From Perna viridis (Eukaryota), in NCBI GenBank assembly GCA_037379345.1, contig CM074515.1:8742001-8806000 (forward strand): a DNA stretch of 64,000 nt, read 5' to 3'. Every line of letters begins with the position of its first letter. Within the stretch, counting starts at the first letter, position 1. The position numbers and the translations under genes are program-made. The notes under the pieces were generated by a model. The model was given only the letters and a program-made list of their open reading frames with translations. It made no database searches and had not been told where the DNA came from. Below, in pieces: positions 26,982 to 62,360 of this stretch.

Positions 26982-27119
26982 TAAGGCCCCCAGGGGACTA
27001 GAGGGCTGACAGGACGGTATGTATGTTTACCTGTATCTCCTATAAAACACTAAGGCCCCCAGGGGACTAGAGGGCTGACAGGACGGTATGTATGTTTACC
27101 TGTATCTCCTATAAAACAC
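26982..27119. repeat. Exact 69-bp tandem duplication
   Basis: 26982-27050 is identical to 27051-27119. Confidence 0.95.
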
Positions 27120-29568: not shown

Positions 29569-29960
29569 TACCAGTGACTATTGTCTATTTGACTTGCTTG
29601 TCTGTGTACCAGTGAGTATTGTCTATTTGACTCGCCTGTCTGCATACCAGTGACTATTGTCTATTTGACTTGGTTGTGTGTATACCAGTGAGTATTGTCT
29701 ATTTGACTCGCCTGTCTGCATACCAGTGACTATTGTCTATTTGATTTGCTTATCTGTATACCAGTGAGTACTGTCTATTTGACATGCCTGTTTGTGTATT
29801 AGTGAGTACTGTCTATTTGACTTGGTTGTGTGTATACCAGTGAGTATTGTCTATTTGACATGCCTGTCTGTATACCAGTGAGTACTGTCTATTTGACTTG
29901 GTTGTGTGTATACCAGTGAGTACTGTCTATTTGACTTGCCTGTCTGTGAGTATTCTCTTT
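29569..29960. repeat. 38-bp minisatellite, ~10 copies
   Basis: Unit taccagtgastattgtctatttgacttgcctgtctgtg with variants. Confidence 0.95.
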
Positions 29961-30848
29961 GTGACTAGCCTGTGTAAGTAGCCTATAGTTTTTGTTTTTG
30001 AAGAATAGATCTGTTTTATATCCTTGGATTTTTTAGCTTATATTGGTACCTGTAAGTTCATGTAAACAGTCTTTAACAAGCCTGGAAATACAAAAGTGCT
30101 AAATTTTTATTTTTTAAAGAATTCTGTTACTTTTCAATAACTGATGAAAAGGAATACGAGAAAAACACAGAACTGTTACAGTTTTTAATAGACATTACTA
30201 AGAAATAAGATTGTTGTTTAAGGAAATAATCTTTTATAAATATCAAAGAATCAGTGTTAAAGCTATCTTGAATGTAGTTTCATTTAAAAGCTATTGTGTG
30301 AAGGTGAGTGAGACAAAAGATACCTCCTGTCTGTTGTTCACATGAACCATAGTTGAGTTCATTGTCCTCCCCACAGACCCAATGTATAAAGTGAAGGAAG
30401 ACCATGGACATGTAAAGCTCAAATAATCAAAAATACATTATCCTAAATGGACACCATTTGTTATATTTGTCAATTAAATGATAGTCTGGAAACTTTTTTC
30501 TTATCAATTGTGGAAAGAAGTGAACAGGTTTATCAGAAAGGTTCATGCTTTATTTCAGTCATGTGATAGTCATGTGGTAGGAGTTCAGTACTTACAATAA
30601 AAAGCCTGAAAGCTGATTTTACATCATATTATTTATCTAACATTGTGTAACCACATAATAGCTTATCATTCCACTGCTTGTTGTTACACTTTATTTTCAA
30701 TAACCACTTTTGAGTTTGTTTTTAGAACATTACAGCTTTTAACCCAGACACTTTTATTAATATAAATTTACATTATGCTTATATTAATTTTTGAAGCCAG
30801 CAGATAAGGTTTTAACATACCAGGGATGTAGTGAGCTGTCATTTAACA

Positions 30849-42900: not shown

Positions 42901-45900
42901 GACAAAACCACAATTCCACCATGCTCATGTCATCCTTACCACATCTTATTATGACCCGACTATAATTTAGATATGACTATTTCAGCTTCTATTCATGCTC
43001 ATGTCATTGTCACTTGAAATAGTATAAAAACTCTATGGTTTGATCAGATATTTCCATCTCCATTGAACCATGGACACGCAATACCATGTAGTCATTCTAA
43101 ATCTGAATTCTTTCATAATTTAGTACAACAATTAGTCTGGTGATTTATTAGTCATTGACCAATACATCTACTCTTGCAGTAGATTTTAAGTACCAGGGAT
43201 TGTCTCTGGGATGGGTAGGTCCAAAGTCTCTACTTAGACTGGAGAGGTATCAGGTTTGCAAAGAATCATGGTGAGAGCATAGTAAGAGTGTAGTAAATGT
43301 GTTGTATAATGGTGGTGGAAGCATAGAAAGTTTTAGTTGCAATTGGTGAAATTGTAATAAGGTGGTATTAAAAACATGATAAGTCGAGTAGAATTGTGAT
43401 AAATGTAGTAAGGTTGTAGTGTTTAGAGTGATGAGAATGTGATGTGATTGTAGGTAGATTGTACATAGAAGGAAGTAACCACAAACTCACCATGATTTAT
43501 TTTAGATTGCTTTGAGAGTAGTATGATAGTGGCCTGGTGTGACAGGGGCTTTTGAGAGTAGTGTGATAGTGGCCTAGTGTGGCAGTGGCTTTTGAGAGTA
43601 GTGTGATAGTGGCCTAGTGTGACAGGGACTTTTGAGAGTAGTGTGATAGTGGCCTAGTGTTACATGAGCTTTTGAGAGTAGTATAATAGTGGCCTAGTGT
43701 GGCAGGGGCTTTTGAGAGTAGTGTGATAGTGGCCTAGTGTGACAGGGGCTTTTGAGAGTAGTGTGATAGTGGCCTAGTGTGGCAGGAGCTTTAGATATAC
43801 TGTTAATCATTATTACTAAGTATTGCTTATAACAAAGTCAGCTGAACTCCATAAATTCATCTAGAAAATTTATGCAAATGATTAAAATTATTAAAGATGA
43901 AATAAAAGTGCCAGAGCATTTTACAGTATTGATTAAAACATAAAAAATTCCACAAGTTACAAGAAGACTGATCAGTTTTTCTTCCTCTTTCCTTTTATTT
44001 TCATGCATTTTGATTAATGTTTAATTATAAAGTCCAATTTACCAATGGCTACATTAACATGATAAAAGCATTGAGAGTTCTTATTGCTTTATTGAACAAT
44101 GCAGGCAGTTATTATGTGTTATGCAATGACAGATTTGATTATTTTGGAATTGTTTCAAATTCATTTAGGTTCGAGAAGGAGAGTCATTTTTATAGACTCA
44201 CTGACATGAAGTCAAACAAGGCATGTCTTTTTCAGTCATTGACTAATTCTAAGATTTTGGCTAATTCATAATACTAGTTATTTTATTGTTAGTTAACTTA
44301 TCATGAACTGCAAATCATGTTATAGAATAGCAAATTTAATTCATTAAGTATTTCCATAATCAACTATTTAAGTCAATAATTTCATATTAAAGCATTTTAT
44401 ACTTTTATAATATATGTTTTTTTTTTAATGAATAAAAATTGCCAAGGTGAGCTATATTATTTTAATGTGATGTTGTAAATATGATGTTAAGAGTGTAGTC
44501 TGTTACTGTATTGTGAGTGAAAATTTGGTGTTTTTGAGTAAAGAAGGTATACGAAAAAATTTTGGCATTTTAAGTTTTGGCAGTTGTTAAGTGTTGTGTT
44601 CAGTTTTAAGCCTGGAGTAAACATTTTGGGAATTTATTTTGGTGTTATGGACAGACTACTAAAATATGCAAAATTAGCACCCTGCAGAAATTACCAATTA
44701 TACTGTATTTATGCATTTGCTTTTATAGGTCTGCCTTTGTGATGAAGAGCAGGAAAATTACAGACACAATGGAGAAGATTACATGGAAAGAACATTCCTT
44801 GTTAAAGTGCTTTCCAATAATAAATCCTGGAATGTCCGTCGAACTTATAGAAACTTTAGGTTACTGGATAGACAATTACACAAGTGTATCTTTGACAGGA
44901 AGTTCAGTCAGCTACCAGACCTTACTCTTCAGGAGGAGGGGTCAAGGACATATGAGGTCAGTCTCCATTTGCCTAGACTTAATCCAATTATACAGCCTTA
45001 TAATTACCAGATAAAATATCCGACATATTGTATGAATGAACTTCTCTATAAAATCATGTGAAACACTGAAATTTAATTTTCTTTTAGATAATGGTATGTA
45101 AGTGAACAATGATAGTAATTCTTATATCATCAGCATAGGCCAATCAAACATTATGTTTTTTTTGGGTTTTTTTTTGATATTGCAATAAAATTGGTGATGG
45201 ACCAACTTCATTGAAAGGGGGACTGAGCAACAGAGATAAAGATTTAGCTGGCCTTAGCATGTTTGTTTTTTATGACACAGTAGCATTTAATTGAACCTAA
45301 AATTACAGGAGATGGAGTCAGAACTTAGTAGTTACTTACAAAGGTTTACCAACATTGCTAACAGTATGTTAAACTGTGGGACAATACTCAACTGGTTTGA
45401 GGTAAGATATGCATGTTTTTTTTTAAAATAAAATCCCATTCCTTGAATCAAAAAAGCATAAAAAGAGTTTCAACATTTAATACAATATATAATGCAAAAC
45501 ATAATACTGATGATAGAGAGAAAAATCAGATAACAGCAAGTTCTATTCCTTAATTGATATTAACAGTACTACCTGTAATTGTCTTCTCAGTTATCATATG
45601 GTTCAGGTACATGTAATTAGTCATCATAATGACTTTTTATGAAAACAACCTTCAATAATATTTTGTTCAGATGATTAAAAGGAGCAAATCTTAACATGAA
45701 AACTTCTATTCAAGTGTTCAGATGTCGACCAGACTAGATGATTGCTTATGTTTTGTTCGTGTTTTTTTTACGTCCAATTCTTATTATATAGTTTTAGTAA
45801 TTGAGAATTAAAGTTTGGATATTTAGCAACTATATAGCAAATTCCCTCTGCCTTAAAATGTAGGTCATTTCTTATGTTTCAGCTTGACAACAGAGGAAAC

Positions 45901-48900
45901 CGACTGTTAGCAATAGATGATTCTGGAATCAATACCCCTGCTATAGCTGCTGCCCATGCTGTTAAAAGATATACTGCTCAAGCTGTTGATGAAATCTCAC
46001 TTGAGGTACTTACATATTCATGTGATTTGTAAACAGTAGAAATGTTTGAAGATGAGTAATGACTACCAATGCAACTAATCTTCAGAAAGTTTTGATCTAT
46101 CAAGTCAACAATAAGAAAAAGATCTTAAAACATGCTGACCATTGTCCTTTTTGGCCTAATAAAATTTATCTTAAGATGTATGAGTTCAGAAATTTATTTA
46201 TACTTTTTGTGGATCAGATAGTTAACTTAAGATTTCATAGCCAACAAAATGCACCTTATCCCATGCTGTTAATGTAGATGTAGATGGTAGACAACCTATT
46301 AATTTGATTATATACAAATCATGGTGCAACTGGTACAAAGCTGACAGAATTACATTGTATTATTGTAGGTTGGAAATATAATGTCTGTGATGACAGAATT
46401 ACATTGTATTATTGTAGGTTGGAGATATAATGTCTGTGATGACAGAATGACATTGTATTATTGTAGGTTGGAGATATAATGTCTGTGATGACAGAATGAT
46501 ATTGTATTATTGTAGGTTGGAGATATAATGTCTGTGATGACAGAATGACATTGTATTATTGTAGGTTGGAGATATAATGTCTGTGATGACAGAATGACAT
46601 TGTATTATTGTAGGTTGGAGGTATAATGTCTGTGATGACAGAATGACATTGTATTATTGTAGGTTGGAGATATAGTATCTGTGATAGATATGCCTGCTGC
46701 TGAAGATACCATGTGGTGGAGAGGAAAGAGAGGTTTTGAGGTCAGGTTTATTTTTTTATCATACTTATTATAGTTAAAAGAATATGATATTTGTGTAGCA
46801 TAATTGTTGTATTATGAAATCAGTGGTAACCGTCAGTTAAACTGTAGAATCATTACTACATCAAACTGACTTACATATGTATACAGAGTCTAAAAATGGT
46901 CAAGTCTGTGAATAAATGGGTGGAAGTTCCTGTTTTAATTTTGATTATCTTGCAATGCCTAATATGTACACTGTTTTTGCCAGTTATGATTTCTCAGGTG
47001 CTATCTTTATAATTAAATATGAGTTGTTTTTAAATAGGATGCTGTGAAGCTTTGTTTTTTTTTCAAAATTTCATTCTTAATCAAAGATTTGTGATGGTGA
47101 GTAGAGTAGAAACTTGCTTTCAACAAATATTTTACAGTTCTATGATAACTTATGTTTGTGGTTTGACTGTATCAAGAAAATTTCTTCCCAAACAACTATA
47201 ATTTTTCCTCAATAATTATGACCATTTTTCCTACATAAAAAATCCTTAAGACCTTTTATATCTTAAAGACTTTAAAGTAAAACATCAGTTTTTCTATGTT
47301 ATGTCTGACATGCCTTTCTTGTCATCAAGTTTTATGTCATAGTTTTGTTATTTTTCAATAGGTTGGATTTTTTCCCAGTGAATGTGTAGAGATTATAGGA
47401 GACAAAGTTCCATCATCAGTGGAAAACAGAATACCACTGAATAGTAGGCGACCCTGTATGCATGGTTTGATTACTAACATAGTTCATTATCAAGCCTGCA
47501 ATGTTTATGATTCTGAAATCAGTGTTTTTTCTCTGCCTTGTCATCTTTGTATACAAATATTTTTGCGTAGGTGATGGTATTTTAAATTTTTGCTTTGCAT
47601 TTCTAAGATTAACCTGATACACACCTCTTGTGTTGTAAAATTAAATACATGTTTAATTGATAAACTATTACTGTAAAGTTATGGGATGGAGAATTATTTC
47701 TTGTCTTTTTGTCTTACACATTTTAATTTATGAACCACTTTTCCTACGCCCTAACTGCTTTGTAAAATAATCCATAACTTTGATTTAGGGTGGATTTCTT
47801 CTCTACTTAGTATGGAGATACATTATGCTAATAGAATAGTCATCCAATTTTTCTAAACCAATTAAAACATTGCAGGCCTGATTGTTTTTGAAAAAAAACA
47901 TGTAGAAAACAAGTTTTGGAGATGATTGTTAATTTGACTCAATACTTTTGCATGCATCCTTACTGAATGAATAAAATGACCTCATGTATTTCACTTAAAA
48001 GCAATGAGAAGTCAATCCAAGCTAACTGCATGGTAACATATTTCACTGAAGAAAAATGTTAAAACTGTTTGTAAGCTTGGTTCTATTCTATTTTCATACG
48101 CCCATCAATTTTGACAAGATATATAATGGTATAATGATGTCTGTCGTCAACTTGTCATACAATAACTCCAAAACACTTAAAACCATTTAAATAAAAGTTT
48201 GGTCAATTCTTCATATTGATGGGAGAAAGCTCCTTTTAATTCAATATAAAAGTTTGGTCAATTCTTCATATTGATGGGAGAAAGCTCCTTTTAATTTGAT
48301 ATTAATTTCGAAGATTTAGTTTTTGTGTTAAAGGATTTTATGCATTTGAGAAAAAGGAGGGTTTTCTGTTTTCACATTCTAACTGAAAATTACTTCCAGC
48401 TAATGCCATGAAACCTTTGGATATTCTTTGTATCTATGGCCATAGGCTCCCTTTCCTTCTTTTTTTTTCATAACATTTGAATTTCTAGTTTTGATTTTTG
48501 GCATTTTTCATAAAAAAAAAAGATGGGGTGGTTTTTCCATTTTCACACTCTAACTGAAAAAAAAAAAAAACACTTTCTGCAAATGCCACAAAACTTTGAG
48601 ATATCCTTTGTATACATGGTCATAGGCTCCCATTTGTCTTTAATAAAATTTTTATTTCGTGTTTTAAATTTTTGGTACTTTTTCATAAAAAAGTGGTTGG
48701 TTTTTCTGTTTTTGCACTCTAACTGAAAAAAGATTTTTGGCAAATGCCACAAAATTTTGAGATACTATTTGTATTCATGGTCATAGGGTCACTTTCAGTT
48801 GTTATAAAGTTTCAATTTTGAGTTTTTGATGTATAATATATATAAATAGGTTGATTTTTCTGTTTTTGCACTCTAACTAAAAAATGCTTTCAGCCAAGTC

Positions 48901-51900
48901 CACAAAACTTTGAGATATTCTTTGTATCCATAGTTCCATTTGTTTTCTATAAAATTTTTGGCACTTCTTCATACAAAAGGAAGGTGGTTTTTCCATTTTT
49001 TTGCTCAGTCGATGGATGTATCATGTGCTCATGGCACAGCTCATTAATACTCATTCCCCCATCATGACCTTTCCTTTCTACATGTATATATACAAGTGTA
49101 AATGTAGGTAAACAATTTTTTTTCCAAATTTTTCAAAAATTTGTATCAAACCTTTCTTCCAAAATGTTATAAAAAAAGCCTCCTAATCTCTGTTTTAGTA
49201 ATATTAATGGTCTTAGACCTTGAATGCAACTTCTTCAGTTGTTTAAAATATTGTTATACAGTGATTAATTGAATTATCCAAGCAACTCACTGCTACATGC
49301 AAGGTTAAATAGTCAATTCAAATTAATATTGTATAATTGTATTGATCTGTGAATCATGTTTGTGATATACCTGTGTGACTAACTACATTGTTACATCAAT
49401 ACTTGTTTGTAATCAGTGTGTTATTGATATACCTGTGTGACTAACTACATTGTTACATCAATACTTGTTTGTAATCAGTGTGCTATTGATTTTGCGTTAT
49501 ATTATTTTATTTGTAACATCTCTCTCTATCTAAAGACAAGTATGTTTGATGATTAATTTTTATAAATACAATTATCTTCCAGTGATATAGATAATGATAT
49601 TTGATAGCTTTTTGTAAATATTTTTGAAGTGTTGAAGAATTCTTTATTACAGTAATACAGATTTTAATTAGAAAGTGATGAGATCCTGCAAACTTACCCC
49701 TTTGTTCTGTGTGTAGATACATTTGTTCTAATGTTATTTTTGTTATAAACTGTTTAAGCACATATTTTGTGATTGAATCACTACCTGAGAAATAAATTTA
49801 TATTGAGATATAAGCAGAATTGAAATTTTAGAGTTATGAAAACCACAAAGTGTTCTTTTAAAAATAAAATCAAACTTAACACCTGTCTAATAACTGATAG
49901 TATGTCAGAAATTAAACATGAAATGATTTTATTATTGTTTCATTTTTATTCTGTAGTGGTTAGAAAACATGGCAAGTTCCTGTCATTTTTACGGATGTTC
50001 TTTACAACTCGACCAGCAAGGAACCAGTTAAAACAGACAGGGATTGTCAAGGAACGTGTGTTTGGTTGTGACCTTGGAGAACATTTACTGAATACTGAAA
50101 ATGATGGTATGATATTTTAGCATTTTCATTTACAAAGTTTTGTGTATTTAGTCATATATCGTGGATGATCAGTGTATGTATTATAAGTCTATAATGTACA
50201 TAATCAGTGGTTTTCTTCACATATCATGCAACATTAATTCTTATCAAAATTCACAATCTTGACTGGAAACACTTTGAATTTGAATAAAACACATAATTTA
50301 TGGTGATTTGTTTGCCAAATACAGTTTTCAAATAGCTACACAAGCAAACAAAAGTTAGGGCATGTGTAGCAAGTTTACATATGTTAGCACTACGAATCAA
50401 CAATAATACAGGGACACATCTAAGGTACATATTTTGTTGATAAAAATCTAAAATTTCATGTGGGTATAGAAGATTTTTGTCTCTACAATCTCAGTATTTT
50501 TTTGTATTTTGTATTACCAGTGCCTTTAGTACTGAAGTGTTGTTCTGAGGTGATTGAACAGCATGGTATTGTGGATGGTATATATAGGTTGTCAGGGATC
50601 ACGTCTAATATACAGAAACTCAGGTATTATATATAGTTTGCATACCTGTTTACCACACAATTCCACTAAATCAAACATTGGCTTTAACGTAAAAAATCTC
50701 CCCAAATAAGACATTGTCAATGGTTAGAATCTCCACCATGAACTGTTCCAAAGGTTCACAGTTATGAGTTTGTTTTGTTTAAACAAATCTTAGTTCTTCA
50801 ATAAACTTATAAAAACCTATGTATTTTCAATCTGTAAGTGACATTTTTAGAAATTTAACAAAGAAATATGGCTGTTAAAATTTTGTTAAATTCAAGTGAG
50901 TAATAAGCTTGAAAAGAGAACATTTTGTTACCATTATAATACACTTTAATCATATTCAAAGAAAGCATACTTACAATATCTAGGGTACAAGGCATTGATA
51001 GAAATGAAGTTCTGTCTTAAATACTAGTATAGAAAAGTTATTTTCAAGTATTATTTGGATATGTTTTAGAGAATTTGTATGCAAGATTTTGGTGTTTATA
51101 GTTTATTACTTTACTAAACCCTAATGTTGAAACTGTAAATTAGGAGGTCAGGAGACATTTAGCAAAGCCAAACCCCATTGTTGCTGTGAGTGGATACACC
51201 TATAAATGATGATATTCATTTAAAAAATTGGTTGGTGAAACAAGATTTTATTGAATAGTGAAAGTTTGTGAGATATATGTCAAAAACATCTTAATGATAT
51301 TTACAAAAAAAAAAACAATTCTTTCAGGTTAGCATTTGATGAGGACAGAATTCCAGATCTAACTGCTGATGTTTATCTACAAGATATTCACAGTATTAGT
51401 TCCCTACTGAAGATGTACTTTCGTGAATTACCAAATCCTTTATTAACTTACCAGCTTTATGATAAATTTGCAGTAAGTAGGAAAGATTATATGTAATAGT
51501 AAATTTTAGTTCGAATTTAATACTCATTTTGGTTTGCCAAACCAGATGATTAGACCCAAAATTAACAGAGTATTAAGAAATAACAAAACCTAATGTAAAA
51601 ATAAAAATCATAGTGATTGAAAGAAAAATTTTTGCAAAATATTACAGACTAATTTCATAAATTATTAACAATTTTAATCAATATAATGATGTATCATTTC
51701 TTGTTAGGCTTTGCTGGGTCTGTAAAGTCACATCGGGATCCAAACTGAAATAAAATAAACGTAATAAATATAGATAGTCATATGAAATTCTGGATATTAA
51801 AAACTCAATCAAACAATATAAATGTGCAAAAATATATTTACATAATATGGGTTTCTTAAGTGTATAGTATAAACATTTATCTGTTTCAAATTAATTTGAC

Positions 51901-54900
51901 AGGATGCAGTGCGGGATGAAGATAATAAACTATTTAAGATCCATGATGTGGTGCAGCAGTTACCTCCCCCTCATTACAGGTAAACTAATTACAAGAAAAG
52001 TAGTATTTGTGTGATGTAACAGATCAAAACTGGGATATGTCAACTTGTATTAAGCTGTTTTTTTGACTAAGTATGGACAAACAATGATAAAAGTAAAAAT
52101 GAGTCGCTTATAGAAAAGTGAATGTTAAAAAACGTGATACTTCATCGATCAATGACATTTGAGAATCCTAAATGAAACTAAAGTGAATAATCAATTAAAA
52201 CATGTATATTGTAAAAGGATTGATTATTTAAAAATACATGTATATTGCTTTGAAATTGTATTTTTAATAAATCATTTGCATTGAAATGATTCCTATTTAC
52301 AGAACTCTGGAATATTTGATGAAGCATTTAGCAAAAGTTTCCACAAATGGCAATGAAACAGGCATGCATTCCAAAAACTTGGCCATAGTATGGGCTCCCA
52401 ATCTTCTCAGGTATAAACTAATCGGTTATAAGGAGGATTCAGTTCATTTTTATTAAAGCTTCTTCAATGTCAAAAACTCCTACAAAACAAGTTATTTTCT
52501 TTAATGATTACAATTAGTCAAATTAATGCAGAATTTTTTTTAAAGAACAATTAACATGCAGGTAAATCGAAGATGTTGTATCTGATATCAGCTGCAATAC
52601 TAGAAGTGTAGAATTATGTAAGTTCCAGTGTTTTTTAGTTTAGCTCTTGCATATGGCTGCAAAAAATTTGTCTTTATTCAAAAGCATAAGAAGTTAAGAA
52701 AATTGGCAAATTTACTGAATGGCTGATTGTTTCAGGTCAAAGGAATTAGAGAGTGGGGGTGGGGCAGCAGCCTTACAGGGTGTGGGGATCCAATCTGTCG
52801 TTACAGAATGTCTCATTGTTTATACTTCAGGTCAAAGGAATTAGAGAGTGGGGGAGGGGCAGCAGCCTTACAGGGTGTGGGGATCCAAGCTGTCGTTACA
52901 GAATGTCTCATTGTTTATGCTGATCTCATATTTAGTGATAAAATGCCTTCTTATAATTCCCCTGAGTTTACACGTAAGTATTTGGTACTATTTACTGTAT
53001 CTTTTTTAAGGAACATGTACTAGTGTCAATAGCTGTAGAAATTTTTCCGCCTTTTAGCAGCATTCTGCTATTTCAAATCCGGATTTTACCATTATGATTT
53101 TTTTCCTTATATTTACTTCCGATTTTGCCAATTTCTGCTTTGTTAGTAGACCTTGTAAAATCATACCTGGTACAAACTGGCAAAGTATGTAGTATATACA
53201 TGATACATTAACAATAATATACTTCATTGTCTTAAGTAAGGAATACAAGCTATATGTACATATTCTACACTTTGTAGATAAAATCTTTGCTATATATTAT
53301 TTTCTCTAATCATTTAGGCACTTTTTCCTTTTGCATCATCTTTGTAACTACATGTACTTCAATAAAAGAAGGAGAATTATAAACCATATCTACATATTTG
53401 TAGAAGCTCGTAAGAAGCCCAGACCAAAGTCTCTAGCAATATCTACACCAACTAAGCTGATAACTTTAGAGGAAGCAAGAGAGAGAGCTCTATCTGCTAG
53501 CCTTCGTCCCAATCCACAGAAATATATAAATGTTGGTGGAGGGCCAGATAAACTGCCATCTAAATATCACACAGTTATAGATCTGCCAAAATACAAGTAA
53601 GATACCCTCAATAAAATGAAGTATAAGATATGTAATCCTTTAGAGTTTTAATTTCTTATCGTAATCTTTTTGAAATATATTTTTATTAAGGTATTTATCT
53701 TCATGAAGTTCATAACTATTGAATAAAATGCAGTTCTTGATTGTAGTTAGTTTATGCTAAATGTTACATAAATAAAAAAATAAGGAAAATGGACAATGGC
53801 AACTTGAATAAAAACTTTTTGACTTTTTATTAGAGTTTATATAATTGTTTTATTATAAGAATACCTTTAGCAGTGAATTGACATTATCAATATTTATGCT
53901 GTAGGAAAAGGATGCCATTGAGGGACAATACCTCTGCTAATGTGAAGGGTAAAAAGTCTCCAGGGAGTTGGAGGTCTATATTTACCAGGGGTTCAACTCG
54001 AGGGAGCATGAAACAGAAGGGAGGTAATGATACAATGAAATCTTTTTGCATCTTAAATCTTTCAAAAAATAATATCTTTCACAGAAATGCTAAAAAGAGT
54101 TGTATTTAAGGGAAGTGTTAAGTAATGAAATTAAGGAAACAGTTTAGTTGCATTCTATTTATAGATATCTCCCACCATTTAACCCTATACAACCTTTTTC
54201 CCAGCCTATTTCATTACTTGTGATAGTTCACAAATTACTAGATGCATTTATGCTATTAAGAAAGTTAACATAAAATATGGATTTAACTTTCTCTGCATGA
54301 CTTTTAGGAGAATCTGTACTTTAATACATAAATAAACCTTAAAAAATTCCTTGAAGCTAGAGATTTGCCTTATTTTTATTTTTGGAACATGTTCTGTATA
54401 TAGCAACAGACTAATTTTACTGTGACAATTTCTCTTGATATCCCCACAGCCCCTGAAAGATGACTCACAATGTTTCCTGATATTTCAATGATAGTAAATC
54501 TCAGATTCTTATCACAGAAATTTATTTTGACAAGAGTTGAACTAATTGGTTTTACACCTTTAAGCCGAAAAATCAAATGAGACAGGAGAGATTTCTTATG
54601 TGTGGCTAAATATCAAGCTTTTACACGGACATGGGATGAAGATTATTTTTTTTTCTATATTAGGGCAGAATTAAGATACTATAATTTAAATCTGTAAATG
54701 AGCTGACTTGATAAATCAAAATTTTCAGAATAAAAAGCTGATTTAATTAATAAAAACACAGACTACATTTGTGATATGTCTACATGTCACTAGTACCAAT
54801 AACTTCAAAGTAATATCTCAAAATCTATTTAAAAAAAAAATGAAAGATGTATTCTCAATACATTGGAAGAGTTTATAAATGTATTTAATTTGCCCTTTTT

Positions 54901-57900
54901 TTTTTCAGAAGAACACCTGATGGATATGGAAAAGAAAGCCATAACAGAAGATGATGTACAGAATTGGAAACGGAGGAGAATACGAGTTGCAAAAAGTGCT
55001 GAGTCATTGATCAATCTACCAAATAGAGACCACAGACTGTCACGGCAGTTTGATGACTTCTCTAGAATTAATTCTTGTTCAGGTATGATAAAAATATTTG
55101 AAAGATGGCTCATGTATAGGAACAGAGGTAGATTTTATTTCAGTAATTTTACTTTGGTGGTCTTTTGTGTCAAGTTTTCTTTTAATTATATGAAGCATGA
55201 ATATTTAAGAACATTCAGTTATTTTTTTCTATGAATAGGTTCTTGGTATTTCAGGTTAAACATGCAAACTTTCCAGCAGTCAGAACTAGAAATTAAAATT
55301 CATTGTGCTTTTGTTTTTCTGATATCCTTGAACTTTTTTTCAGACGAAGAAATGTCTCCACGTACCAAACATAAAAGATCAGCTTCAACAGAGTCTCCAA
55401 GATGTTTAATGAGTAATGATTTCCCAAGCTTTATAGAACCAGGATCCAGGGAAGTTCCTGTAGATGTTGAAATGACAGATGGTTAGTTCTTCTTTCAGAA
55501 TAAATTATAATGATTGTATTAGGTCCCTGATTTTTAAACTGAATTACAAAATTGTGTACCTAGACATTTTGCTTAGAAGTTCTGATATGTTTTTGATCTC
55601 ACAAGTAGAGTAGGATTGTTAGGTAGATATTTTATGAGTAAGCAAAACAAATTTGGTGAAATAAAGACATATGAATCATTTCCTTTTAAAGGAACACAGA
55701 TGCTGTAATGTTGAAGTGTCACTGAATCATTAATTTACAATCAAAAAGCCTTGAATTGATAACTTAAAACATGACTGACCAATGTAGATCATATCAAAAT
55801 AGCTATAAGTTCTGAACAATGAAAAGGTCATTTGATGTTTTTGTCAGTCTTTTACATGATCAGATTGAAAAATTCACTTAAAAAAACGTTTGTATGTAGT
55901 TATTTTAAGGAAGGATTTATGTATTTAACTCCTTGTTTTCAGATAAATATTGGAAATGTGTTATTTCATCACATACTCTGCCTTTTACAAAGTATCAGAG
56001 CGAGTGAACGAGTTTTTCGACCACATGTGGACGTTCTAACATGTAAACAAAATCTCTCGGACTTTTACATCATACAGGCAAACAGCCAAAACTTCCGAGT
56101 GATGAAAAAAATATTTATTATTTGTAAAAGAAAATTGTGAACACATTTTGTATATTGATTTAAATAGTCTGACTTCTGTGTTAAAACGATTCAATCGATG
56201 AATTAATAATTACTAACTACAACTGATTTGTAGTTTCAGTTCAATGTGCTTTCATTACCTCTTCGTTTTCTCTTCATTTCGTTACCTCTGAAAGATTGGC
56301 GGGAGAATGGTGGACTTGTCAATCTTTTTTCTTAATTAATCAACTAATAAATGTATGAAGATTCTCCGAGTTACTTCAATTAATTCGTATACACAATGGG
56401 GCTGTAGGTGTACCGTTAAATCAATTATGCAATCAACTAATCAGTTACAGGTAAATTACAATCACAGGTAGCTGCACATTGGCTAAAATTGACACACACC
56501 TGTCAATTAATTTCCAATAAACGATTAGGAGACTGGTAGGCAGGATGTTTATGCGCTATTAAAACCACGCAGACTGTAATTTATAAGGGTTGATAATATT
56601 TTATGTCAGATATTGGAAAATGGTCGTCAGTCATTTGCAAAATTTGTTGGTCAATGACCAGCATTTTTGACCGTTTCCGGATCCACAGTCATTTGATATG
56701 CAAAGTTGTTACTAGAAGCTGAAGCAAAACAATATGTTTTTACACTTATTACAAAAGCTTAATTTTCTATAAGAAGAATAATAATACCAAACTTTTTATT
56801 TGATTTCATTGCAGATTCCAGCTCTATTGATAGCAGCATGGATGTAAGGAAGGACAAAAAGGCAGAAAGAAAACAATCATTTGTAAGAGGAGATGAAAAA
56901 AGAAAACCAACCCATCGGAGAACTCCCTCAGGATCTGCAACTCCTAGAAAGGAATCTGTTCCTCAAAAGGAAAAAGCACCACTTCCAAAAGATAAAAAAG
57001 CAGTAGTATCTAAACCTATAGCTCAAAGTGAAAAATTAAGGCGGAAAAATGAAACTAACTTTGAAAAAGAAAACAGAGAAAAGCTAGTACAGAAAATTGC
57101 AAAAAGTGTGAAAAATGAAGAAGTGAAAGTGATAGGGACACGTATAAGAGCTGATTCAGTGGGTGATAAGGACAAATTTGTTCTCCATGTTGAAGATGCA
57201 ACTGTATTTTCTACAAGTAGTCCAAAACCATTAGAATCTAAACATACAAGTGACCCTCATTTAAGACATAGTGGGGAAAAGAAACTTAAACCCTCATCTA
57301 GCTCTGAGAGACTGAAAGATTCATCCAAAGAGAACAAATCAAAATCAGGTAAAGGCAGATCCGATATTCAACCAATAGGGAATCTTCCAGAAAGTCCTGG
57401 TGCTAGACGTAAAAATTGGATGAATACATCACCTGCATCAACTCCAGAAGAGTCACCTACAGGATTTTACTCTCAAAGGAAATCTGATTTTGATGAACTT
57501 CTTTCAGACAGTGAACAGTCAAAACTAGCCAAAAAATCACTGCCTAAATTTCCAAATCTGCCAGACAGCCAAAGTGATCCGAACCATTTCCGATCTGATG
57601 TCTCACCTGGAGGATATGATAATTTAGATTCTCCGTTTTCATCCTCAGATTTTCAACATTTTGAATCTCAAACCACCACTACATCTAAGACACATACTAG
57701 CAACTTTAAGCAACATTCATATGAAGAAGAAGAATATGACAATTTACATCCACAATCAAATTCAATGTCACCTCCATTTACATCCAAAATGTCTAAGTGT
57801 TTGAGTGTACCATCTGACATTCAGAAATCTTTGGAGAATCTTACATCTGGAAGTCAGACTGATTTATTATCATCAGTCACCATCAGTGAAATCTCTACTT

Positions 57901-60900
57901 CAGTGGAAAGTTTTAGTGTTGGTCAGAGTGATGATACGTCTAAGGGTCACAGACAATGTCGGAGAAGTACATCTTTGGACAGTGTTAATGACTCTGAATC
58001 ACCATTGACAAGGACCTTGAAGGAAATTAATGCACAAATAGACAGGGCTTTCAAAAGTGAATCAGACAAGGCACAGAAGATAAAAAAGGAACAGTTAATA
58101 CAAGCGAAAACAAATGAATCTTTGGATTTCTCATTACAATCTAAAACAACTGTCCAGCATCAGAGTAGTATAGAATCTGAATCTAATGTTTACACAGACC
58201 GGCCTGCATCAGAAATACAGGTGGTTGAAACACCCCAGTTAGTAAGAAAGGCAGTGAGACCAACACAGATATCACAAGCTAAATTAGAAACTAACATTGA
58301 CAATGAACTGTTAATGGAACATACAAAGGAGGTATCTGTACAAAGGACTCATGAAGCCACTGAGAAGGTTCAGTTTGGACTTTCTGATGAAGATTTTGTG
58401 AATTTTGAGAAATACAAAGCTGAAACAGGCAACAAGATAGACATGTCAGAGGAAGATTTTGAATTCTTCACAAAGCAAGCTCGTTCAAATCAATCATCTA
58501 AACGTCATTCAGTAGCATCAAGTATTGCAAGTCCTATGTCTGACATGAGTCCAGGGGAATATCGTAGGAGAATTGTAAGTCCTACCAGTGATTCTGGTCG
58601 ATGGAGAAATGTTGATAAATCTGATGGAGAACATACAACACCTACAAATAGCCCACCTACAGTGCAGAAACCCACTAAGATGAGAACACCATCACAGGAA
58701 GAAATTCATGCTAGTCCTGTTAGCAGGAGACCAAATCAAATCAGGTCACCATCACAGGAAGAAATAGCCCATGCTAGTCCATCAGCTATACCAAAAGTCA
58801 GTAAATTTCGTACTTCTCAAGAGGAAATTTCTCATATAAGCCCATCTGTTCATCATCGTAAAATACGCACCCCATCTCAAGAAGAACTTTACCATGGAAG
58901 TCCAGTTACTCATCGACCAACAAAAGTTCATACTCCATCACAAGAAAACCTGCCACATTTGAGTCCATCTGTTAATAGACCAAATAAACTTAGAAATCCA
59001 CAAGAATCATCTGCCTCTCAGTTTGTTGAAAACCCAATATACACAGGACCGTCTAGTACTTCACCCAAAAGTCCACCAGCAAAAATGTCACGTAATGAAC
59101 ATGGACCTCTGAGGCTAGAAACTGCCATTGATGAAACTTTGTTTAATAATGATTTAAATGAAGGAAAGGAATCTGCTGAAAGAAATTTTGAAAAACTTCT
59201 TTTTAAAACAAGTCAGAGAGTGGATGGCGAAAATGCTGTTGTACAAAGTCCAAGGTCACCAAGACAACAGCCTCGTTGGGAAGATCTTGCCGGATTAAAT
59301 CAAGATTTTGTGTCCGTTATTAAAAAAGATTCACAGTCACCCAAGTCTCAAAAAACATCAAGACCACCCCTTGGTTCATCATGTCAGACAAGCATGGATA
59401 GTCCTGAAGAAATTCCTTTCGATAAAAAATTACAGGATTTGTCTACTTTCAATGAACATTGGAGGACCCAATTAGCTCCTACTGGGGATGTTTGTCGCCT
59501 GGGAAGTCATGGAGACAGACTGAATGAAGTTTATAATTCTGATACTAAAATAGAAACCGAAAGGCCATCAATTAGAAGGCTGGCTGATAGAATTGACATT
59601 GAAATTGAGCGACCTTCAATCCAAAAATTAGCAGATAACATTAATAGACATTATGGATTTGAAGGTGAACGAACCCTCAGAAGGTCATCTACAGTTGCAG
59701 CAATGGAAAATTTGGAGGAGTATGAACCCAGAGTTCGACAGAGAACTCCAGAGTGTAGCACAGATGAGCAAACTTTAACATTAGAAAAACCTATGATTAA
59801 ACGATGCCAAACTGAATCCAATATTCCTAGGATAAAACAATCAACAGTTGTAACACAAGATACTTCTAGCAATACATCCTCAAGTGCAAATTCTGAACCT
59901 ACACATATTGAGTATGAACCAACTGATCACGGAAAAGTGCTAAGAACTAATTTTACGGATAAATCTCAAAGTGCTAAAGCCAATTCTAATCAGTCAGGGG
60001 GAGTAACTCTGCCACCATCATATCCTGTCATGCCTAGTGGACAGACATGTCATTTAGTTCATGAAACACCTGCTCCTATGGAAACAGACATTGATGGGCA
60101 ATATATGAATGATCAACAAATTTTGTCTGAAGTGTTACCATTTGGTTCTGTTATTGATGATATTGATTTTAATGAGAGCTGTTTTGGAATTCCAACCCAT
60201 CAAAACTTGTCGAATGAAATGCGAGAAAAAATTCAAGAAAGACTAAAAGCTGAACGTGAACAGGCAAATGCAAACATTCCAGAAAGAACTGAAACTATAC
60301 AAAGCCCATTCAGTGATATAAGAAGTCCAACTCAAAATGTTCAGTTGATGGAGATAGAAACACATTTTTCAGCAGATCCTTACCAAATGCCTGTGGCTAC
60401 CGTTCATTTCTTAACACAAGGACCAATAATTCATGCTTCACCACAAGTCATTGAAAAGCTTGACAATTCAGAGGAGGCTGCTCAAAATGCAATAAACCAA
60501 GATCTAGAATTGAGCATGACTCAGAAAAAAGTATCAGAAACTAATAAAACTCCAGCCATGTTCCAATCTGAGATAGTTGGGGTTTCTGATCAAGTAATAA
60601 GGCCGGATTTAGGCAATATGAGGAACACAGGCTTAGAAAATATGACTGTTGTCACTCCAACAGAAGTGCAAATTGATTATTCAAAAACAAAAAGAAGTTC
60701 TGAATTTCCAGAGCTTCCCCCTCCAAGACGTGAATATATAGAAGTATATCGACCAGTACTTGTCAAACGTAAAATTCCAGATCCAGCAAAATCTAACAAT
60801 GCTCAGAAGTCTAGTTTACCAGTACAAAAGCCAAATACTCTGTTGACTGGAGGTCAATCTAAACCATTCTGTGCCCCTTCCGATATTCAGGTAAAGCCTG

Positions 60901-62360
60901 GCTCTGCAATATCAGGGGCACAGTCAAAACCATTTATTGAAACACATATAAATGGTGCACCTCCAGTTATTAAAAAAACTACTGCAAAACCTCCACTTCA
61001 TAAATCCAACAGTGTAGATTATTATAGAAATGAGTATGTAGCAATGGATTCATGTGAAGAGGATACTAGTGATGATGTGTTTGTTGATCAAAATACTGGA
61101 AAAACCCGGTCAAAGTCTGACATCACTGTTTCTGTAATGTGTAGGCCAAAAGACTCTATAGAATTTCAGAATATGCCTCTGTCCTTTATCTCTGAATTCA
61201 GTAGTAGGTCATCACTTGATGATTCTGCTTTAGAAATGGCATCATCTCGTCATGAGGACTTCATGTCTGAGGAAGAGAGTGAGGTAGAGATTTCTAAATC
61301 TCAACAGAGTTCAAAGCTTAAAAATTTACGACAAATGTTTGAAAGTGATACTGCTACAAATAGAAGCTCACAAGTTTCAAATTCAAGTTTACATTTTCAC
61401 CATGAAAATAATGAAAGGGTGAAACAAACAAGATTAAGATTTGCCAATCAGAGGTCATATTCTCAGACAGAGCAATACTCAAGTGAACTCTCTGATGATT
61501 TCAGGCGATCTGGCAGTAATGTTTATTCTAGTCATGTGTCTGGACAACTCTGGCAAATGCCAGGAAGTCGGCGAAGTATTTCTACAGATCTTGGATATGA
61601 ATTCAGACCTAAGAAAATTGAAAAAGTGACAATTGGGATAACAAACTTTGGGAAACCCCCCAAGCATCGAGGAAGTTCTCGGGGAAGAGCTGCTAGTGAA
61701 TCTTCAATGTCAGAATCTGAAATGACAATAAGATTTAGTACTTCAAGAACCTCTCCGAAAGCAGTTCTTGAAGGTTCACCAAAAACAGTAAGGACATCTC
61801 CAAAAGTTTTACGTGCTGACGAGAATTCAAGGGGTAGTAGATCCCCACAAAACCAAAGAAATGTAGATTTGTCTCTTCGATTTGTGCGACAGAAGCCGGG
61901 AGCAGGTTCTCCCAAAAATGTTAGACATGTAAGTTTTAGTGAAAGTAGTGAAACAACACAAATGTCTGTTACCTCTCCATTAAGTACTCAGAGTGAAACA
62001 GTCATTACTAGTGAAACAACACAAAACAGGATGAGTCAATCCTTAAATCTACCCAATGGCAATGAAAAATCCAGGAAAGTTGAAAGGAGGGGAAGCATCA
62101 AGGAGTTAATGCAATTTTTCGAAGAAAAAACAAGTAAAAGAGAGGAAAAGATGCAAGAGGAAGTTTCTGCTTCAACACAATTGAGACACTGTCCCAGAGT
62201 AAGAAGTGAATCCCCAAACTATTGTCACACAGAATCTCGTAGAAATGAAACATTTCGACACAGTTTGGAGATACCTTCAAACAGTTCTCATTTAGAGGGC
62301 CTTGTTAGACCCAATCCTGTACGAATTGGTCCAAAACCATTTTATGGTGCTAAGCAATGA
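30849..62360 (+). CDS. ARHGAP32: Rho GTPase-activating protein of the ARHGAP32/33 (PX-RICS/TCGAP/CdGAPr) family; join(30849..30940,34021..34114,37169..37260,41678..41762,44729..44956,45309..45401,45883..46005,46663..46740,47362..47455,49957..50106,50521..50623,51328..51472,51903..51979,52303..52410,52831..52973,53404..53596,53905..54023,54909..55082,55344..55481,56815..62360), ~2624 aa
   Basis: All introns are GT-AG and phases match throughout (7875 nt, divisible by 3). Family motifs: RFPKLHECAHFHYD, WNVRRTYRNFRLLDRQLHKCIFDRKFSQLP (PX), AAAHAVKRYTAQAVDEISLEVGDIVSVIDMP...WWRGKRGFEVGFFPSECVE (SH3), ERVFGCDLGEHL, GIYRLSG (arginine finger), NLAIVWAPNLLRS, RPKSL...KLITLEEA. The 5' end is uncertain, and an invertebrate gene cannot be assigned to ARHGAP32 versus 33. 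Confidence 0.88.
31082..31107. repeat. (AT)n microsatellite
   Basis: Direct read. Confidence 0.9.
33209..33465 (+). mobile_element. Short interspersed element with closed hairpin (probable Penelope-derived 3' region)
   Basis: CpG-containing island with a perfect 13-bp inverted repeat atgagcaactcgg and ccgagttgctcat. Confidence 0.55.
33515..33692. repeat. 87-bp tandem duplication
   Basis: gaattatactattggaaag...gatctcata twice with few mismatches. Confidence 0.92.
34021..34114 (+). CDS. RhoGAP gene exon (NVKLDEEDEPYRKSSTTTIRSEGTGTVYYNK)
   Basis: Acceptor ctgtttacag, donor AAG|GTATAA; only one open frame (phase 2 in, phase 0 out). Confidence 0.7.
34119..34560. repeat. 51-bp minisatellite directly after an exon donor
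   Basis: Unit gagctgggaggatccactgtgcatcctcactcaacaattgttataaatcat, ~7-8 copies. Confidence 0.92.
34657..35230 (+). mobile_element. Helentron-type non-autonomous element with ~175-bp internal tandem repeats
   Basis: tttttatacccccactc start, gtctgtccgtcc microsatellite seed, three internal repeats, inverted gagtgggggtat near the end. Confidence 0.7.
37169..37260 (+). CDS. RhoGAP gene exon (HGGILQLYDSSDNSSLESQRSSMMKIRRVS-S)
   Basis: Acceptor tctctattgcag, donor CAG|GTTGGT; phase 0 in, phase 2 out, exactly bridging the flanking exons. Confidence 0.7.
37326..38399 (-). mobile_element. Internally deleted BEL/Pao LTR retrotransposon (LTR-gag fragment-LTR)
   Basis: LTRs 37326-37485 and 38247-38399; flanks GACCC/GACCT (5-bp TSD, 1 mismatch); tRNA-His-type PBS at 38226-38245; gag motif KLPKLNLPKFGGDILEWQSFWD (DUF1759-like) with stops and frameshifts. 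Confidence 0.9.
41459..41505 (+). CDS. Candidate internal alternative first exon (MNWENKIAIMFLTWY-S)
   Basis: Two in-frame ATGs, donor CAG|GTATTT, phase 2 matching the acceptor at 41678. Confidence 0.3.
41678..41762 (+). CDS. ARHGAP32: Exon, pre-PX conserved segment (SFEGPSRFPKLHECAHFHYDFVELGKIK)
   Basis: Family motif FPKLxECAHFHY; acceptor atttcag, donor AAG|GTACGT. Confidence 0.92.
41825..42032. mobile_element. MITE with TACTGT...GCAGTA ends
   Basis: Imperfect inverted termini tactgtaaac and gtttgcagta. Confidence 0.4.
42683..43792. mobile_element. Degenerate DNA transposon whose right TIR is amplified as a 40-bp tandem array
   Basis: Left end ccctcatcacatgaggccacaatcagactacactctc matches the reverse complement of the repeat unit. 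Confidence 0.55.
43510..43792. repeat. 40-bp minisatellite, 7 copies
   Basis: Unit ttttgagagtagtgtgatagtggcctagtgtgacaggggc. Confidence 0.95.
44729..44956 (+). CDS. ARHGAP32: Exon, PX domain
   Basis: VCLCDEE...FLVKVLSNNKSWNVRRTYRNFRLLDRQLHKCIFDRKFSQLPDL; tatag acceptor, GAG|GTCAGT donor. Confidence 0.93.
45309..45401 (+). CDS. ARHGAP32: Exon, PX domain C-terminal part (EMESELSSYLQRFTNIANSMLNCGTILNWFE)
   Basis: Family motif YLxR...NCGxxLxWxE; GAG|GTAAGA donor. Confidence 0.9.
45883..46005 (+). CDS. ARHGAP32: Exon, SH3 start (LDNRGNRLLAIDDSGINTPAIAAAHAVKRYTAQAVDEISLE)
   Basis: Conserved family sequence, GT-AG, phase 0/0. Confidence 0.93.
46342..46685 (+). repeat. 49-bp tandem array of an intron/exon acceptor junction, 7 copies
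   Basis: Unit gacagaatgacattgtattattgtag|gttggagatataatgtctgtgat; the last copy runs into the real SH3 exon. Confidence 0.97.
46663..46740 (+). CDS. ARHGAP32: Exon, SH3 core (VGDIVSVIDMPAAEDTMWWRGKRGFE)
   Basis: SH3 WWRG motif; only the last of seven tandem acceptors gives an open frame. Confidence 0.92.
47362..47455 (+). CDS. ARHGAP32: Exon, SH3 end and linker (VGFFPSECVEIIGDKVPSSVENRIPLNSRRP)
   Basis: VGFFP motif; donor GTATGC at 47456, with an alternative in-phase GT at 47444. Confidence 0.85.
48090..49045 (+). mobile_element. Helentron-type non-autonomous element with ~175-bp internal repeats
   Basis: ttttcatacgcccatc start and gatggatgtatc near the end; repeated cactctaactgaaaa...ccacaaaactttgagatat block; internal ~56-bp duplication at 48191-48295. 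Confidence 0.65.
49364..49489. repeat. 62-bp tandem duplication
   Basis: gatatacctgtgtgactaactac...aatcagtgtg twice. Confidence 0.92.
49957..50106 (+). CDS. ARHGAP32: Exon, polybasic region and RhoGAP start (VRKHGKFLSFLRMFFTTRPARNQLKQTGIVKERVFGCDLGEHLLNTEND)
   Basis: Family motifs KHGK and ERVFGCDLGEHL; GT-AG. Confidence 0.95.
50521..50623 (+). CDS. ARHGAP32: Exon, RhoGAP domain with arginine finger (VPLVLKCCSEVIEQHGIVDGIYRLSGITSNIQKL)
   Basis: GIYRLSG catalytic motif intact. Confidence 0.96.
51328..51472 (+). CDS. ARHGAP32: Exon, RhoGAP domain (LAFDEDRIPDL...[30 protein letters not shown])
   Basis: Canonical LKxYFRELPxPL motif; GCA|GTAAGT donor. Confidence 0.96.
51903..51979 (+). CDS. ARHGAP32: Exon, RhoGAP domain (DAVRDEDNKLFKIHDVVQQLPPPHY)
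   Basis: IHDVxQQLPPPHYR family motif. Confidence 0.95.
52303..52410 (+). CDS. ARHGAP32: Exon, RhoGAP domain (TLEYLMKHLAKVSTNGNETGMHSKNLAIVWAPNLL)
   Basis: MxxKNLAIVWAPNLL motif. Confidence 0.96.
52731..52918 (+). repeat. 95-bp tandem duplication of an acceptor plus exon 5' part
   Basis: ttcag|gtcaaaggaattagagag...tctcattgtttat twice, with 2 substitutions. Confidence 0.97.
52831..52973 (+). CDS. ARHGAP32: Exon, RhoGAP C-terminal helix (SKELESGGGAAALQGVGIQAVVTECLIVYADLIFSDKMPSYNSPEFT)
   Basis: Second copy of a 95-bp duplication; the only acceptor in frame with the donor at 52974 (GTAAGT). Confidence 0.88.
53404..53596 (+). CDS. ARHGAP32: Exon, post-GAP conserved region (RPKSLAISTPTKLITLEEARER...YINVGGGPDKLPSKYHTVIDLP)
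   Basis: Matches motifs conserved downstream of the GAP domain in this family; phases 1/2. Confidence 0.93.
53905..54023 (+). CDS. ARHGAP32: Exon (KRMPLRDN...KKSPGSWRSIFTRG...)
   Basis: KKSPxxWRSxF family motif; GAG|GTAATG donor. Confidence 0.9.
54909..55082 (+). CDS. ARHGAP32: Exon (EHLMDME...RIRVAKSAESL...)
   Basis: AKSxESL family motif; strong pyrimidine tract; CAG|GTATGA donor. Confidence 0.88.
55344..55481 (+). CDS. Exon (EEMSPRTKHKRSASTESP...VEMTD)
   Basis: tttttttcag acceptor, GTTAGT donor, phase 1/1 open frame. Confidence 0.82.
55972..56580. mobile_element. Probable young insertion, unclassified
   Basis: CpG-rich block in an otherwise CpG-poor intron; weak inverted ends tactctgc and gcagactgta. 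Confidence 0.35.
56815..62360 (+). CDS. Giant terminal coding exon (5546 nt), Ser/Pro/Glu-rich disordered tail
   Basis: The 1840-aa ORF extends upstream in frame to the acceptor tttcattgcag ending at 56814; phase 1 matches the previous exon. Confidence 0.93.

What the first reader, a model, noticed from the sequence alone, without database searches (positions are those of the whole stretch)
52726..52973. 95-bp duplication turned exon sequence into intron and left an upstream acceptor encoding a tail-less RhoGAP
Seen: acceptor 1 (52736) keeps the native-looking intron context (ggctgattgtttcag) but reads ...IQSVVTECLIVYTSGQRN-TAG, ending the protein at the end of the GAP domain. Acceptor 2 (52831) is the only one in frame, and its pyrimidine tract (tctcattgtttatacttcag) is mostly former coding sequence. 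ATTGTTT occurs in both the intron end and the exon (microhomology). The copies differ at 2 sites (ggt/gga; tct/gct). Inference: intron extension by intronisation caught in the act, with a possible short PX-SH3-GAP product or an NMD switch.
Basis: partly seen in the sequence, partly recalled or inferred. Interest (0 to 1): 0.7.

Follow-up and report, generated by a model that had tools for sequence, protein, structure and literature searches.

The report
Duplicated splice acceptor in mussel gene
In a mussel-family signalling gene, a real 95-letter tandem duplication copied a splice acceptor, and the RNA reads seen all use the second copy, so the protein is predicted to be unchanged and the first copy is likely just decaying intron, an ordinary case of a known repeat type.

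Summary
The duplication is real: 52731-52825 and 52826-52920, with three differences, not two. Contigs of four DNA samples from four studies show it: two span the copy junction, the other two show its breakpoints or depth. It is not an assembly artefact. In three raw RNA runs (one study), 9 reads join 52410 to the second acceptor (52831), none join the first, and copy 1's interior has no depth. The mRNA therefore keeps the full ARHGAP32-like frame. Copy 2 keeps the Ala found in 20 of 20 full-length mollusc orthologues; copy 1 has drifted. No tail-less GAP or NMD switch is shown, but 9 reads bound acceptor-1 use only below about 28%, and NMD could hide it. The claimed ATTGTTT microhomology is out of register (89, not 95, apart). 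This is an acceptor 'mirage', known from amphioxus. The same gene holds a second one (49 bp x 7), and this scan noted several others in this genome. The small twist: only 5 intron bases were copied, so the working pyrimidine tract is former coding sequence, and it scores above the native one.

The parts
52303..52410 (+). upstream RhoGAP-domain exon, donor CAG|GTATAA
   Evidence: joint 51979->52303 in 52 reads; joint from 52410 in 9 reads
52411..52830 (+). intron as spliced today, 420 nt (inferred 325 nt before the duplication)
   Evidence: 'skips 420, GT..AG' in 1+3+5 reads
52731..52825 (+). copy 1: last 5 intron bases plus first 90 exon bases; now intronic
   Evidence: RNA depth 0 in bin 52770-52809 in 4 of 4 runs
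52826..52920 (+). copy 2: supplies the used AG and the coding exon start
   Evidence: RNA shows no other letters against copy 2
52734..52735 (+). acceptor 1 AG (native intron context, not seen used)
   Evidence: no joint listed and no spliced depth; matrix score 3.4
52811..52830 (+). chimeric acceptor 2: 15 nt of former coding sequence plus the duplicated 5 intron bases
   Evidence: 13 of 17 pyrimidines at -20..-4 against 9 of 17 for acceptor 1; score 9.5
52831..52973 (+). the exon found in mRNA (143 nt), last helix of the GAP domain and linker
52842..52844 (+). TAG that would end an acceptor-1 transcript, 129 nt before the next junction
52760..52760 (+). copy difference T (copy 2: A at 52855); synonymous, polarity unknown; copy 1 lacks an AG here
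52794..52794 (+). derived T in copy 1 (Ala codon to Ser codon); copy 1 lacks an AG here
52824..52824 (+). A at -7 of acceptor 2 (copy 2: G at 52919); derived or a junction lesion; raises the acceptor score by about 1 bit
46342..46685 (+). second acceptor-spanning repeat in the same gene: 49 bp x 7 (27 intron + 22 exon bases); only the last acceptor (46663) reads without a stop
   Evidence: not covered by the RNA lay
34001..62357 (+). host gene, ARHGAP32-like PX-SH3-RhoGAP with a long tail (approximate coding span)
   Evidence: tblastn of mollusc orthologues; Pfam on orthologues; named hits

Best explanation
A 95-bp tandem duplication copied the last 5 bases of an intron and the first 90 bases of the next exon; the spliced reads seen use only the downstream AG, so the intron is 95 nt longer, the protein is predicted to be unchanged, and the upstream copy is likely neutral intron sequence now drifting. 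Shown: the duplication in DNA of several individuals; distal splicing; the mRNA carrying copy-2 letters; the conserved residue in copy 2. Inferred: the distal site wins in one step because former codons give it a better pyrimidine tract than the native G-rich one and because it abuts the intact exon; any leak to acceptor 1 would make a premature stop that nonsense-mediated decay would likely remove; the allele survived because its junction happened to make a usable acceptor.
For: DNA: in X1 a 122-nt contig spans the copy junction with no differences at depth 91, against 102 and 113 for the flanks; X12 also has a junction-spanning contig; X3 breaks at the same two places (52790, 52859) and X5 at 52790. 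Bin depth fits both chromosomes in X1, X3 and X5 and rules out 'no duplication' in all four. RNA: 9 reads to 52831, none to 52736; depth 0 at 52770-52809 against a summed 15.8 at 52850-52889. Orthologues: Ala in 20 of the 20 proteins that contain the site, among 38 found with a query from the far tail, and in 18 of 18 found with the exon itself. Four of 18 displayed metagenome loci have the intron at the same place, each with a single copy. A 16-site matrix from this gene scores acceptor 2 at 9.5 and acceptor 1 at 3.4; natives score -0.7 to 10.4, and 0 of 236 intronic AGs reach acceptor 2. Context: 2 of 8 tandem repeats in the gene span hit an exon boundary, against 1.85 by random placement.
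Against: Only 9 junction reads, from one study; the 95% upper bound on steady-state acceptor-1 use is about 28% (17% by depth), and NMD would hide more. This junction has fewer reads than its neighbours (52 upstream, at least 30 downstream); the tool warns that such dips can come from its human-read filter, but I could not show the cause. The genotype of the RNA animals was not shown: a non-duplicated allele equal to copy 2 would give the same reads. X12's depth is nearer a heterozygote (8.3 observed; 9.2 het, 12.1 hom), so fixation is not shown. Sense intronic reads occur in this intron in 3 of 4 runs and in the upstream intron in none (p about 0.18), a weak hint of slower splicing. The matrix is crude (16 sites). 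Human RICS has Ser at this position, so copy 1's Ser codon alone does not prove loss of constraint.
Confidence: 0.8

Rival explanations
1. Two-step (recursive) removal: the spliceosome first joins 52410 to acceptor 1; because the exon begins with GT, this regenerates a donor, and a second reaction removes the 95-nt copy to acceptor 2. The mRNA is the same.
For: The sequence shows AG|GT at both acceptors. The regenerated donor CAG|GTCAAA scores 7.8 in a 17-site matrix whose natives score 3.0-11.6; every other GT in copy 1 scores below 0. This is the geometry of the Rogers model (PMC4974935, parts 1-2 of 5 read).
Against: No intermediate was seen. The score comes mostly from the exonic CAG and the GT. 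The exon junction complex inhibits regenerated splice sites in Drosophila (PMC8184009, abstract read). Direct use of the stronger distal site needs no extra step.
Confidence: 0.07
2. Regulated unproductive splicing or a short PX-SH3-GAP isoform: acceptor 1 is used in some tissues, lowering gene output through NMD or giving a protein about 2,000 residues shorter.
For: Acceptor 1 keeps an intact AG, a branch-like TTTAC about 21 nt upstream and a score inside the native range. NMD would hide the transcript. Read depth is low.
Against: 0 of 9 junction reads and no depth in copy 1 in three samples. The stop lies 129 nt before the next junction with five more junctions behind it, which by the general NMD rule (recalled) predicts decay, not protein. 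The product would lose the end of the last GAP helix, which the solved human RICS domain 3iug includes. No orthologue locus examined has this duplication.
Confidence: 0.1
3. Assembly artefact: two alleles were joined in tandem.
For: The window holds five near-perfect two-copy duplications, 78 per Mb against 8 per Mb in 390 kb sampled elsewhere, which could suggest local assembly trouble.
Against: Junction-spanning contigs in X1 and X12; matching breakpoints in X3 and X5 from other studies; the neighbouring 55-bp and 62-bp duplications show shared contig breaks in the same runs.
Confidence: 0.01

Closest known systems
Amphioxus 'mirages': globin BflGb6 and BflGb9, Adh3, PGBD5, troponin C (PMC3087553, 5 passages read; PMC3902484, 1 passage read)
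   Same: Tandem duplication across an exon-intron boundary; BflGb6 repeats the 3' end of an intron plus the 5' part of the exon; extra splice signals that do not disturb normal splicing; the 95-bp unit lies between the sizes given there (10-72 bp and 150-160 bp). BflGb9 is described as a single duplicate.
   Different: Two copies with no length variation seen. Only 5 intron bases were copied, so the used acceptor does not inherit its pyrimidine tract but takes it from former codons. Whether some amphioxus units are like this I did not check (supplementary alignments not read; the original Adh3 paper is not held).
Potato RdRp intron gain by a duplication across an intron-exon boundary (PMC4974935, parts 1-2 of 5 read)
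   Same: A duplication crosses an intron 3' end and exon start; former exon bases become intron; verified by DNA and RNA reads.
   Different: There a cryptic donor in the first copy made a new intron and a new exon, with tract and branch site inherited. Here no internal donor is used, no intron is gained and the mRNA is unchanged.
Rogers AGGT tandem-duplication model, ATP2A1 and Drosophila cases (as described in PMC4974935 and PMC2891723, passages read)
   Same: The extra 95 nt begin with GT and end with AG, and their removal leaves the peptide unchanged; the retained form has a premature stop, as in the Drosophila cases.
   Different: The AG|GT is an existing acceptor, not an exon-internal proto-splice site, so intron number and position do not change.
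ARHGAP32 / RICS / PX-RICS / CdGAPr family (host gene)
   Same: PX, SH3 and RhoGAP domains on orthologues; 72% identity over 600 tail residues to Mytilus proteins, one named ARHGAP32; best solved structure for a gastropod homologue is human RICS 3iug.
   Different: Nothing unusual in the predicted protein; the finding concerns only the splice site.

Membership tests
Mirage (exon-boundary tandem repeat) | Head-to-tail repeat whose unit spans an exon-intron boundary | tested here: met
   Unit = 5 intron + 90 exon bases, 2.0 copies
Mirage (exon-boundary tandem repeat) | Extra splice signals do not disturb normal mRNA splicing | tested here: met
   9 of 9 junction reads give the normal frame; no depth in copy 1; limited depth, one study
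Mirage (exon-boundary tandem repeat) | Copy-number instability between haplotypes or cells (reported property of the clusters) | tested here: inconclusive
   Same breakpoints in X1, X3, X5; X12 depth ambiguous; contigs drop rare variants
Intron gain by tandem duplication (Rogers model; potato RdRp type) | A new intron position appears, with a donor supplied by the first copy | tested here: not met
   One 420-nt intron from the old donor to acceptor 2; same intron position in single-copy orthologue loci L002, L003, L004, L026
Intronization of exonic sequence (strict sense) | Coding sequence is lost from the mRNA relative to orthologues | tested here: not met
   Spliced product aligns without a gap to Mytilus orthologues across the exon
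Recursive splice site (AG|GT ratchet point) | Juxtaposed acceptor and regenerated donor | tested here: met
   AG|GT at 52735/52736; regenerated donor scores in the native range of a crude matrix
Recursive splice site (AG|GT ratchet point) | Splicing intermediate or lariat at the site | not testable with these tools
   No intermediate among 118 laid reads, but these were not nascent-RNA data
Regulated unproductive splicing (AS-NMD switch) | The stop-containing isoform is made and rises when NMD is blocked | tested here: inconclusive
   0 of 9 junction reads at steady state; NMD block not available

The most novel reading that the evidence does not exclude
A working 3' splice site was born from coding sequence and then tuned by selection: all three differences between the copies go the way that favours the distal acceptor (two remove an AG from copy 1, one removes a G from the new tract; about 66 of 270 possible changes would do so, post hoc p about 0.015), possibly with a two-step rescue in which any use of the first AG is re-spliced at the regenerated CAG|GT. 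That would be a compact natural test of how a spliceosome chooses between twin acceptors.
Probability: 0.12. Interest if true: 0.5.

Novelty: new member of a known kind. Interest (0 to 1): 0.24.

Why it matters
Mostly it does not: the predicted protein is unchanged and the repeat type is known. It is a well-supported small example of an intron growing by duplication across its 3' end, and of the distal of two acceptors winning when former codons supply a better tract. Practical point: such repeats can mislead gene annotation; the scallop orthologue P0031 begins with 11 copies of a 29-residue exon-start unit, which looks like this error. If the tuning or two-step reading held, the locus would be a handy minigene for 3' splice-site choice.

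Tried and rejected
1) ATTGTTT as breakpoint microhomology: out of register by 6 nt. 2) Internal donor in copy 1: 8 internal GTs, none in frame with acceptor 2, all scoring below 0; none seen in RNA. 3) Breakpoint chosen for the best possible acceptor: with the ancestral G it ranks 18 of 129 possible right ends, and 65 of 129 would outscore acceptor 1, so a usable junction was not a rare accident. 4) Enrichment of repeats at exon boundaries in this gene: 2 of 8, random 1.85, P 0.59. 6) X11's higher share as a sign of acceptor-1 use: the lay showed an intronic contig 52445-52746 that ends before the first copy-telling base. 7) X12 ('organism B') as cross-species evidence: its intron pieces are identical to the window, so it is likely the same species' DNA. 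8) Literature: six answered searches listed no report of this duplication; I judged from listings and abstract starts only. The original mirage paper was not held; supplementary alignments of PMC3087553 were not read and could show units with as little intron sequence as this one. 9) My one search used exon ends shifted by one base; the frames hold, the next exon starts at 53404.

Full report
Observation. The window holds a head-to-tail duplication of 95 nt at 52731-52825 and 52826-52920. It is single-copy in the window's genome G000. The copies differ at three places: 52760/52855, 52794/52889 and 52824/52919. The unit is the last 5 bases of an intron and the first 90 bases of an exon. Splicing from the donor after 52410 to acceptor 1 (52736) gives a TAG at 52842-52844, 129 nt before the next donor; splicing to acceptor 2 (52831) keeps the frame.

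Host gene. Exons from about 34001 to 62357 match mollusc ARHGAP32-like proteins exon by exon. The nearest named hits are Mytilus proteins of about 2,520 residues, 71-72% identical over 600 tail residues, so the animal is likely of the mussel family. Orthologues carry PX, SH3 and RhoGAP Pfam domains. The duplicated exon encodes the last helix of the GAP domain; the solved human RICS domain 3iug includes this helix to its end. An acceptor-1 product would lose the end of that helix and about 2,000 tail residues.

Is it real? I laid 4 of 24 listed runs as DNA, all as assembled contigs. X1, possibly the source sample, has contigs 49453-52790 (depth 102), 52764-52885 (depth 91, crossing the copy junction with no difference) and 52859-53092 (depth 113), the pattern expected of a true duplication on both chromosomes. 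X12 also has a junction-crossing contig (52787-52885). X3 breaks at 52790 and 52859 and X5 at 52790; their junction contigs are not in the shown part of the table. Predicted depth of bin 52692-52895 for two copies on both chromosomes, on one, or on none was 168.6/127.9/57.3 for X1 (seen 158.9), 17.3/13.0/6.0 for X3 (15.9), 10.4/7.8/3.7 for X5 (12.9) and 12.1/9.2/4.1 for X12 (8.3) (flank depths for X5 and X12 are partly stand-ins). So it is no artefact and is at least common; fixation is not shown. The listed pieces of X3 and X5 differ from the window at 8 of 4,740 and 8 of 4,860 bases (my sums, table 8), about 0.17%, against 2-3 of 95 between the copies: the event is likely older than present allelic variation.

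Which acceptor is used? Three raw stranded RNA runs of one study (19-25% of each read; 118 reads laid) and one contig run were laid on 51850-53040. The joint 52410->52831 has 1, 3 and 5 reads. No joint to 52736 is listed, and depth is 0 in bin 52770-52809 in all four runs; the 13 bases of depth at 52730-52742 in X21 belong to an unspliced read. The reads show no other letters against copy 2. The upstream joint has 52 reads and the downstream one at least 30, so this junction is under-covered; the tool warns of filter dips in conserved genes, and I could not show the cause. The 95% upper bound on acceptor-1 share is 28% by junction reads and 17% by depth. The RNA animals were not genotyped. Sense intronic fragments lie in this intron in 3 of 4 runs and in the upstream intron in none (p about 0.18).

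Which copy is ancestral? Of 38 proteins found with the far tail as query, 20 contain the site and all 20 have Ala, as copy 2 does; 18 of 18 found with the exon itself do too. Of 69 metagenome loci I displayed 18: four have the intron at the same place, each in one copy, and Tandem Repeats Finder on all 69 found no repeat over the exon. The three closest (L002-L004) have G where copy 1 has A at 52824. The synonymous site cannot be polarised (L002 matches copy 2, L003 and L004 copy 1). Human RICS has Ser at the Ala site, so Ser is not ruled out for the fold.

Why the second acceptor? Acceptor 2 has 13 of 17 pyrimidines and 1 G at -20..-4; acceptor 1 has 9 and 5 G. A matrix from 16 other acceptors of this gene scores them 9.5 and 3.4. 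The boundaries in that training set come from homology and sequence context, and only three were checked by RNA. Half of all possible right breakpoints (65 of 129) would outscore acceptor 1, and the real one ranks 18th, so this exon readily gives such a site. Two differences remove an AG from copy 1 and the third raises the score by about 1 bit; 66 of 270 possible single changes fall in this class. The class was defined after seeing the data, one change is unpolarised, one may be a junction lesion, and a nearer AG at 52805 remains, so this is a lead only. The exon starts with GT, so a two-step route is open in principle, though the exon junction complex inhibits such sites in flies (abstract).

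How ordinary? The same gene has a 49-bp x 7 array over the acceptor of an SH3 exon, where only the last acceptor reads without a stop. Two-copy duplications of 30-300 bp at 90% or more number 5 in the window, 5 in 200 kb beside it and 3 in 390 kb elsewhere; 2 of 8 repeats in the gene span hit a boundary, as chance predicts. Protein P0001, from an unnamed record of another animal, reads as two copies of this same exon start with a 39-residue unit, and the Pecten orthologue P0031 starts with 11 copies of a 29-residue unit from another exon start; I saw no DNA for either. Earlier notes of this scan (unchecked) describe several such arrays in this genome and gave me the term 'mirage' and two papers, whose passages I then read. 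[quoted passage not shown] The potato RdRp case and Drosophila cases differ in gaining an intron; NMD as a backup for weak new splicing is argued in PMC2809761 (abstract).

Verdict. A real, transcribed, most likely silent acceptor mirage in two copies. Novelty: new member of a known kind. Interest 0.24.

Noticed in passing
window 46342-46685: 49-bp x 7 array of intron end plus SH3-exon start: six upstream acceptors all lead to stops, only 46663 reads on. The last copy differs from the others near its end (one Val-for-Met codon). No RNA was laid here.
   Followed up: partly
protein P0001 (unnamed ENA record): Reads as a 39-residue tandem duplication of the same exon's acceptor and 5' part in another animal, with both visible copies altered; an independent event at the same boundary. 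DNA not available.
   Followed up: no
protein P0031 (Pecten maximus orthologue), residues 1-320: Eleven copies of a 29-residue unit from the start of an early exon are annotated as coding; likely another acceptor-spanning array mis-read by annotation.
   Followed up: no
window 26982-27119, 33515-33692, 48191-48296, 49363-49490: Four more near-perfect two-copy duplications; the window has 78 per Mb, its flanks 25 and distant samples 8 (P about 0.01 without the focal one). The two covered by the DNA lay show shared contig breaks in other individuals. Possible local hotspot.
   Followed up: partly
window 53050-53300 and about 50700-50800: Short high-copy repeat fragments in introns: summed contig depth up to about 350-fold and 55-fold above flanks.
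   Followed up: no
window 56763-62357: The last exon is one open frame of 1,865 codons with no Pfam match, 68% identical to the Mytilus tail.
   Followed up: partly
window 37421-38309 (- strand) and 3070-3489 (+ strand): Short broken frames that look like mobile-element remnants (resemblance recalled, not tested).
   Followed up: no
window 29567-29973: 38-bp x 10 intronic array whose unit carries a donor-like GTGAGT in some copies; no orthologue exon matched next to it.
   Followed up: partly
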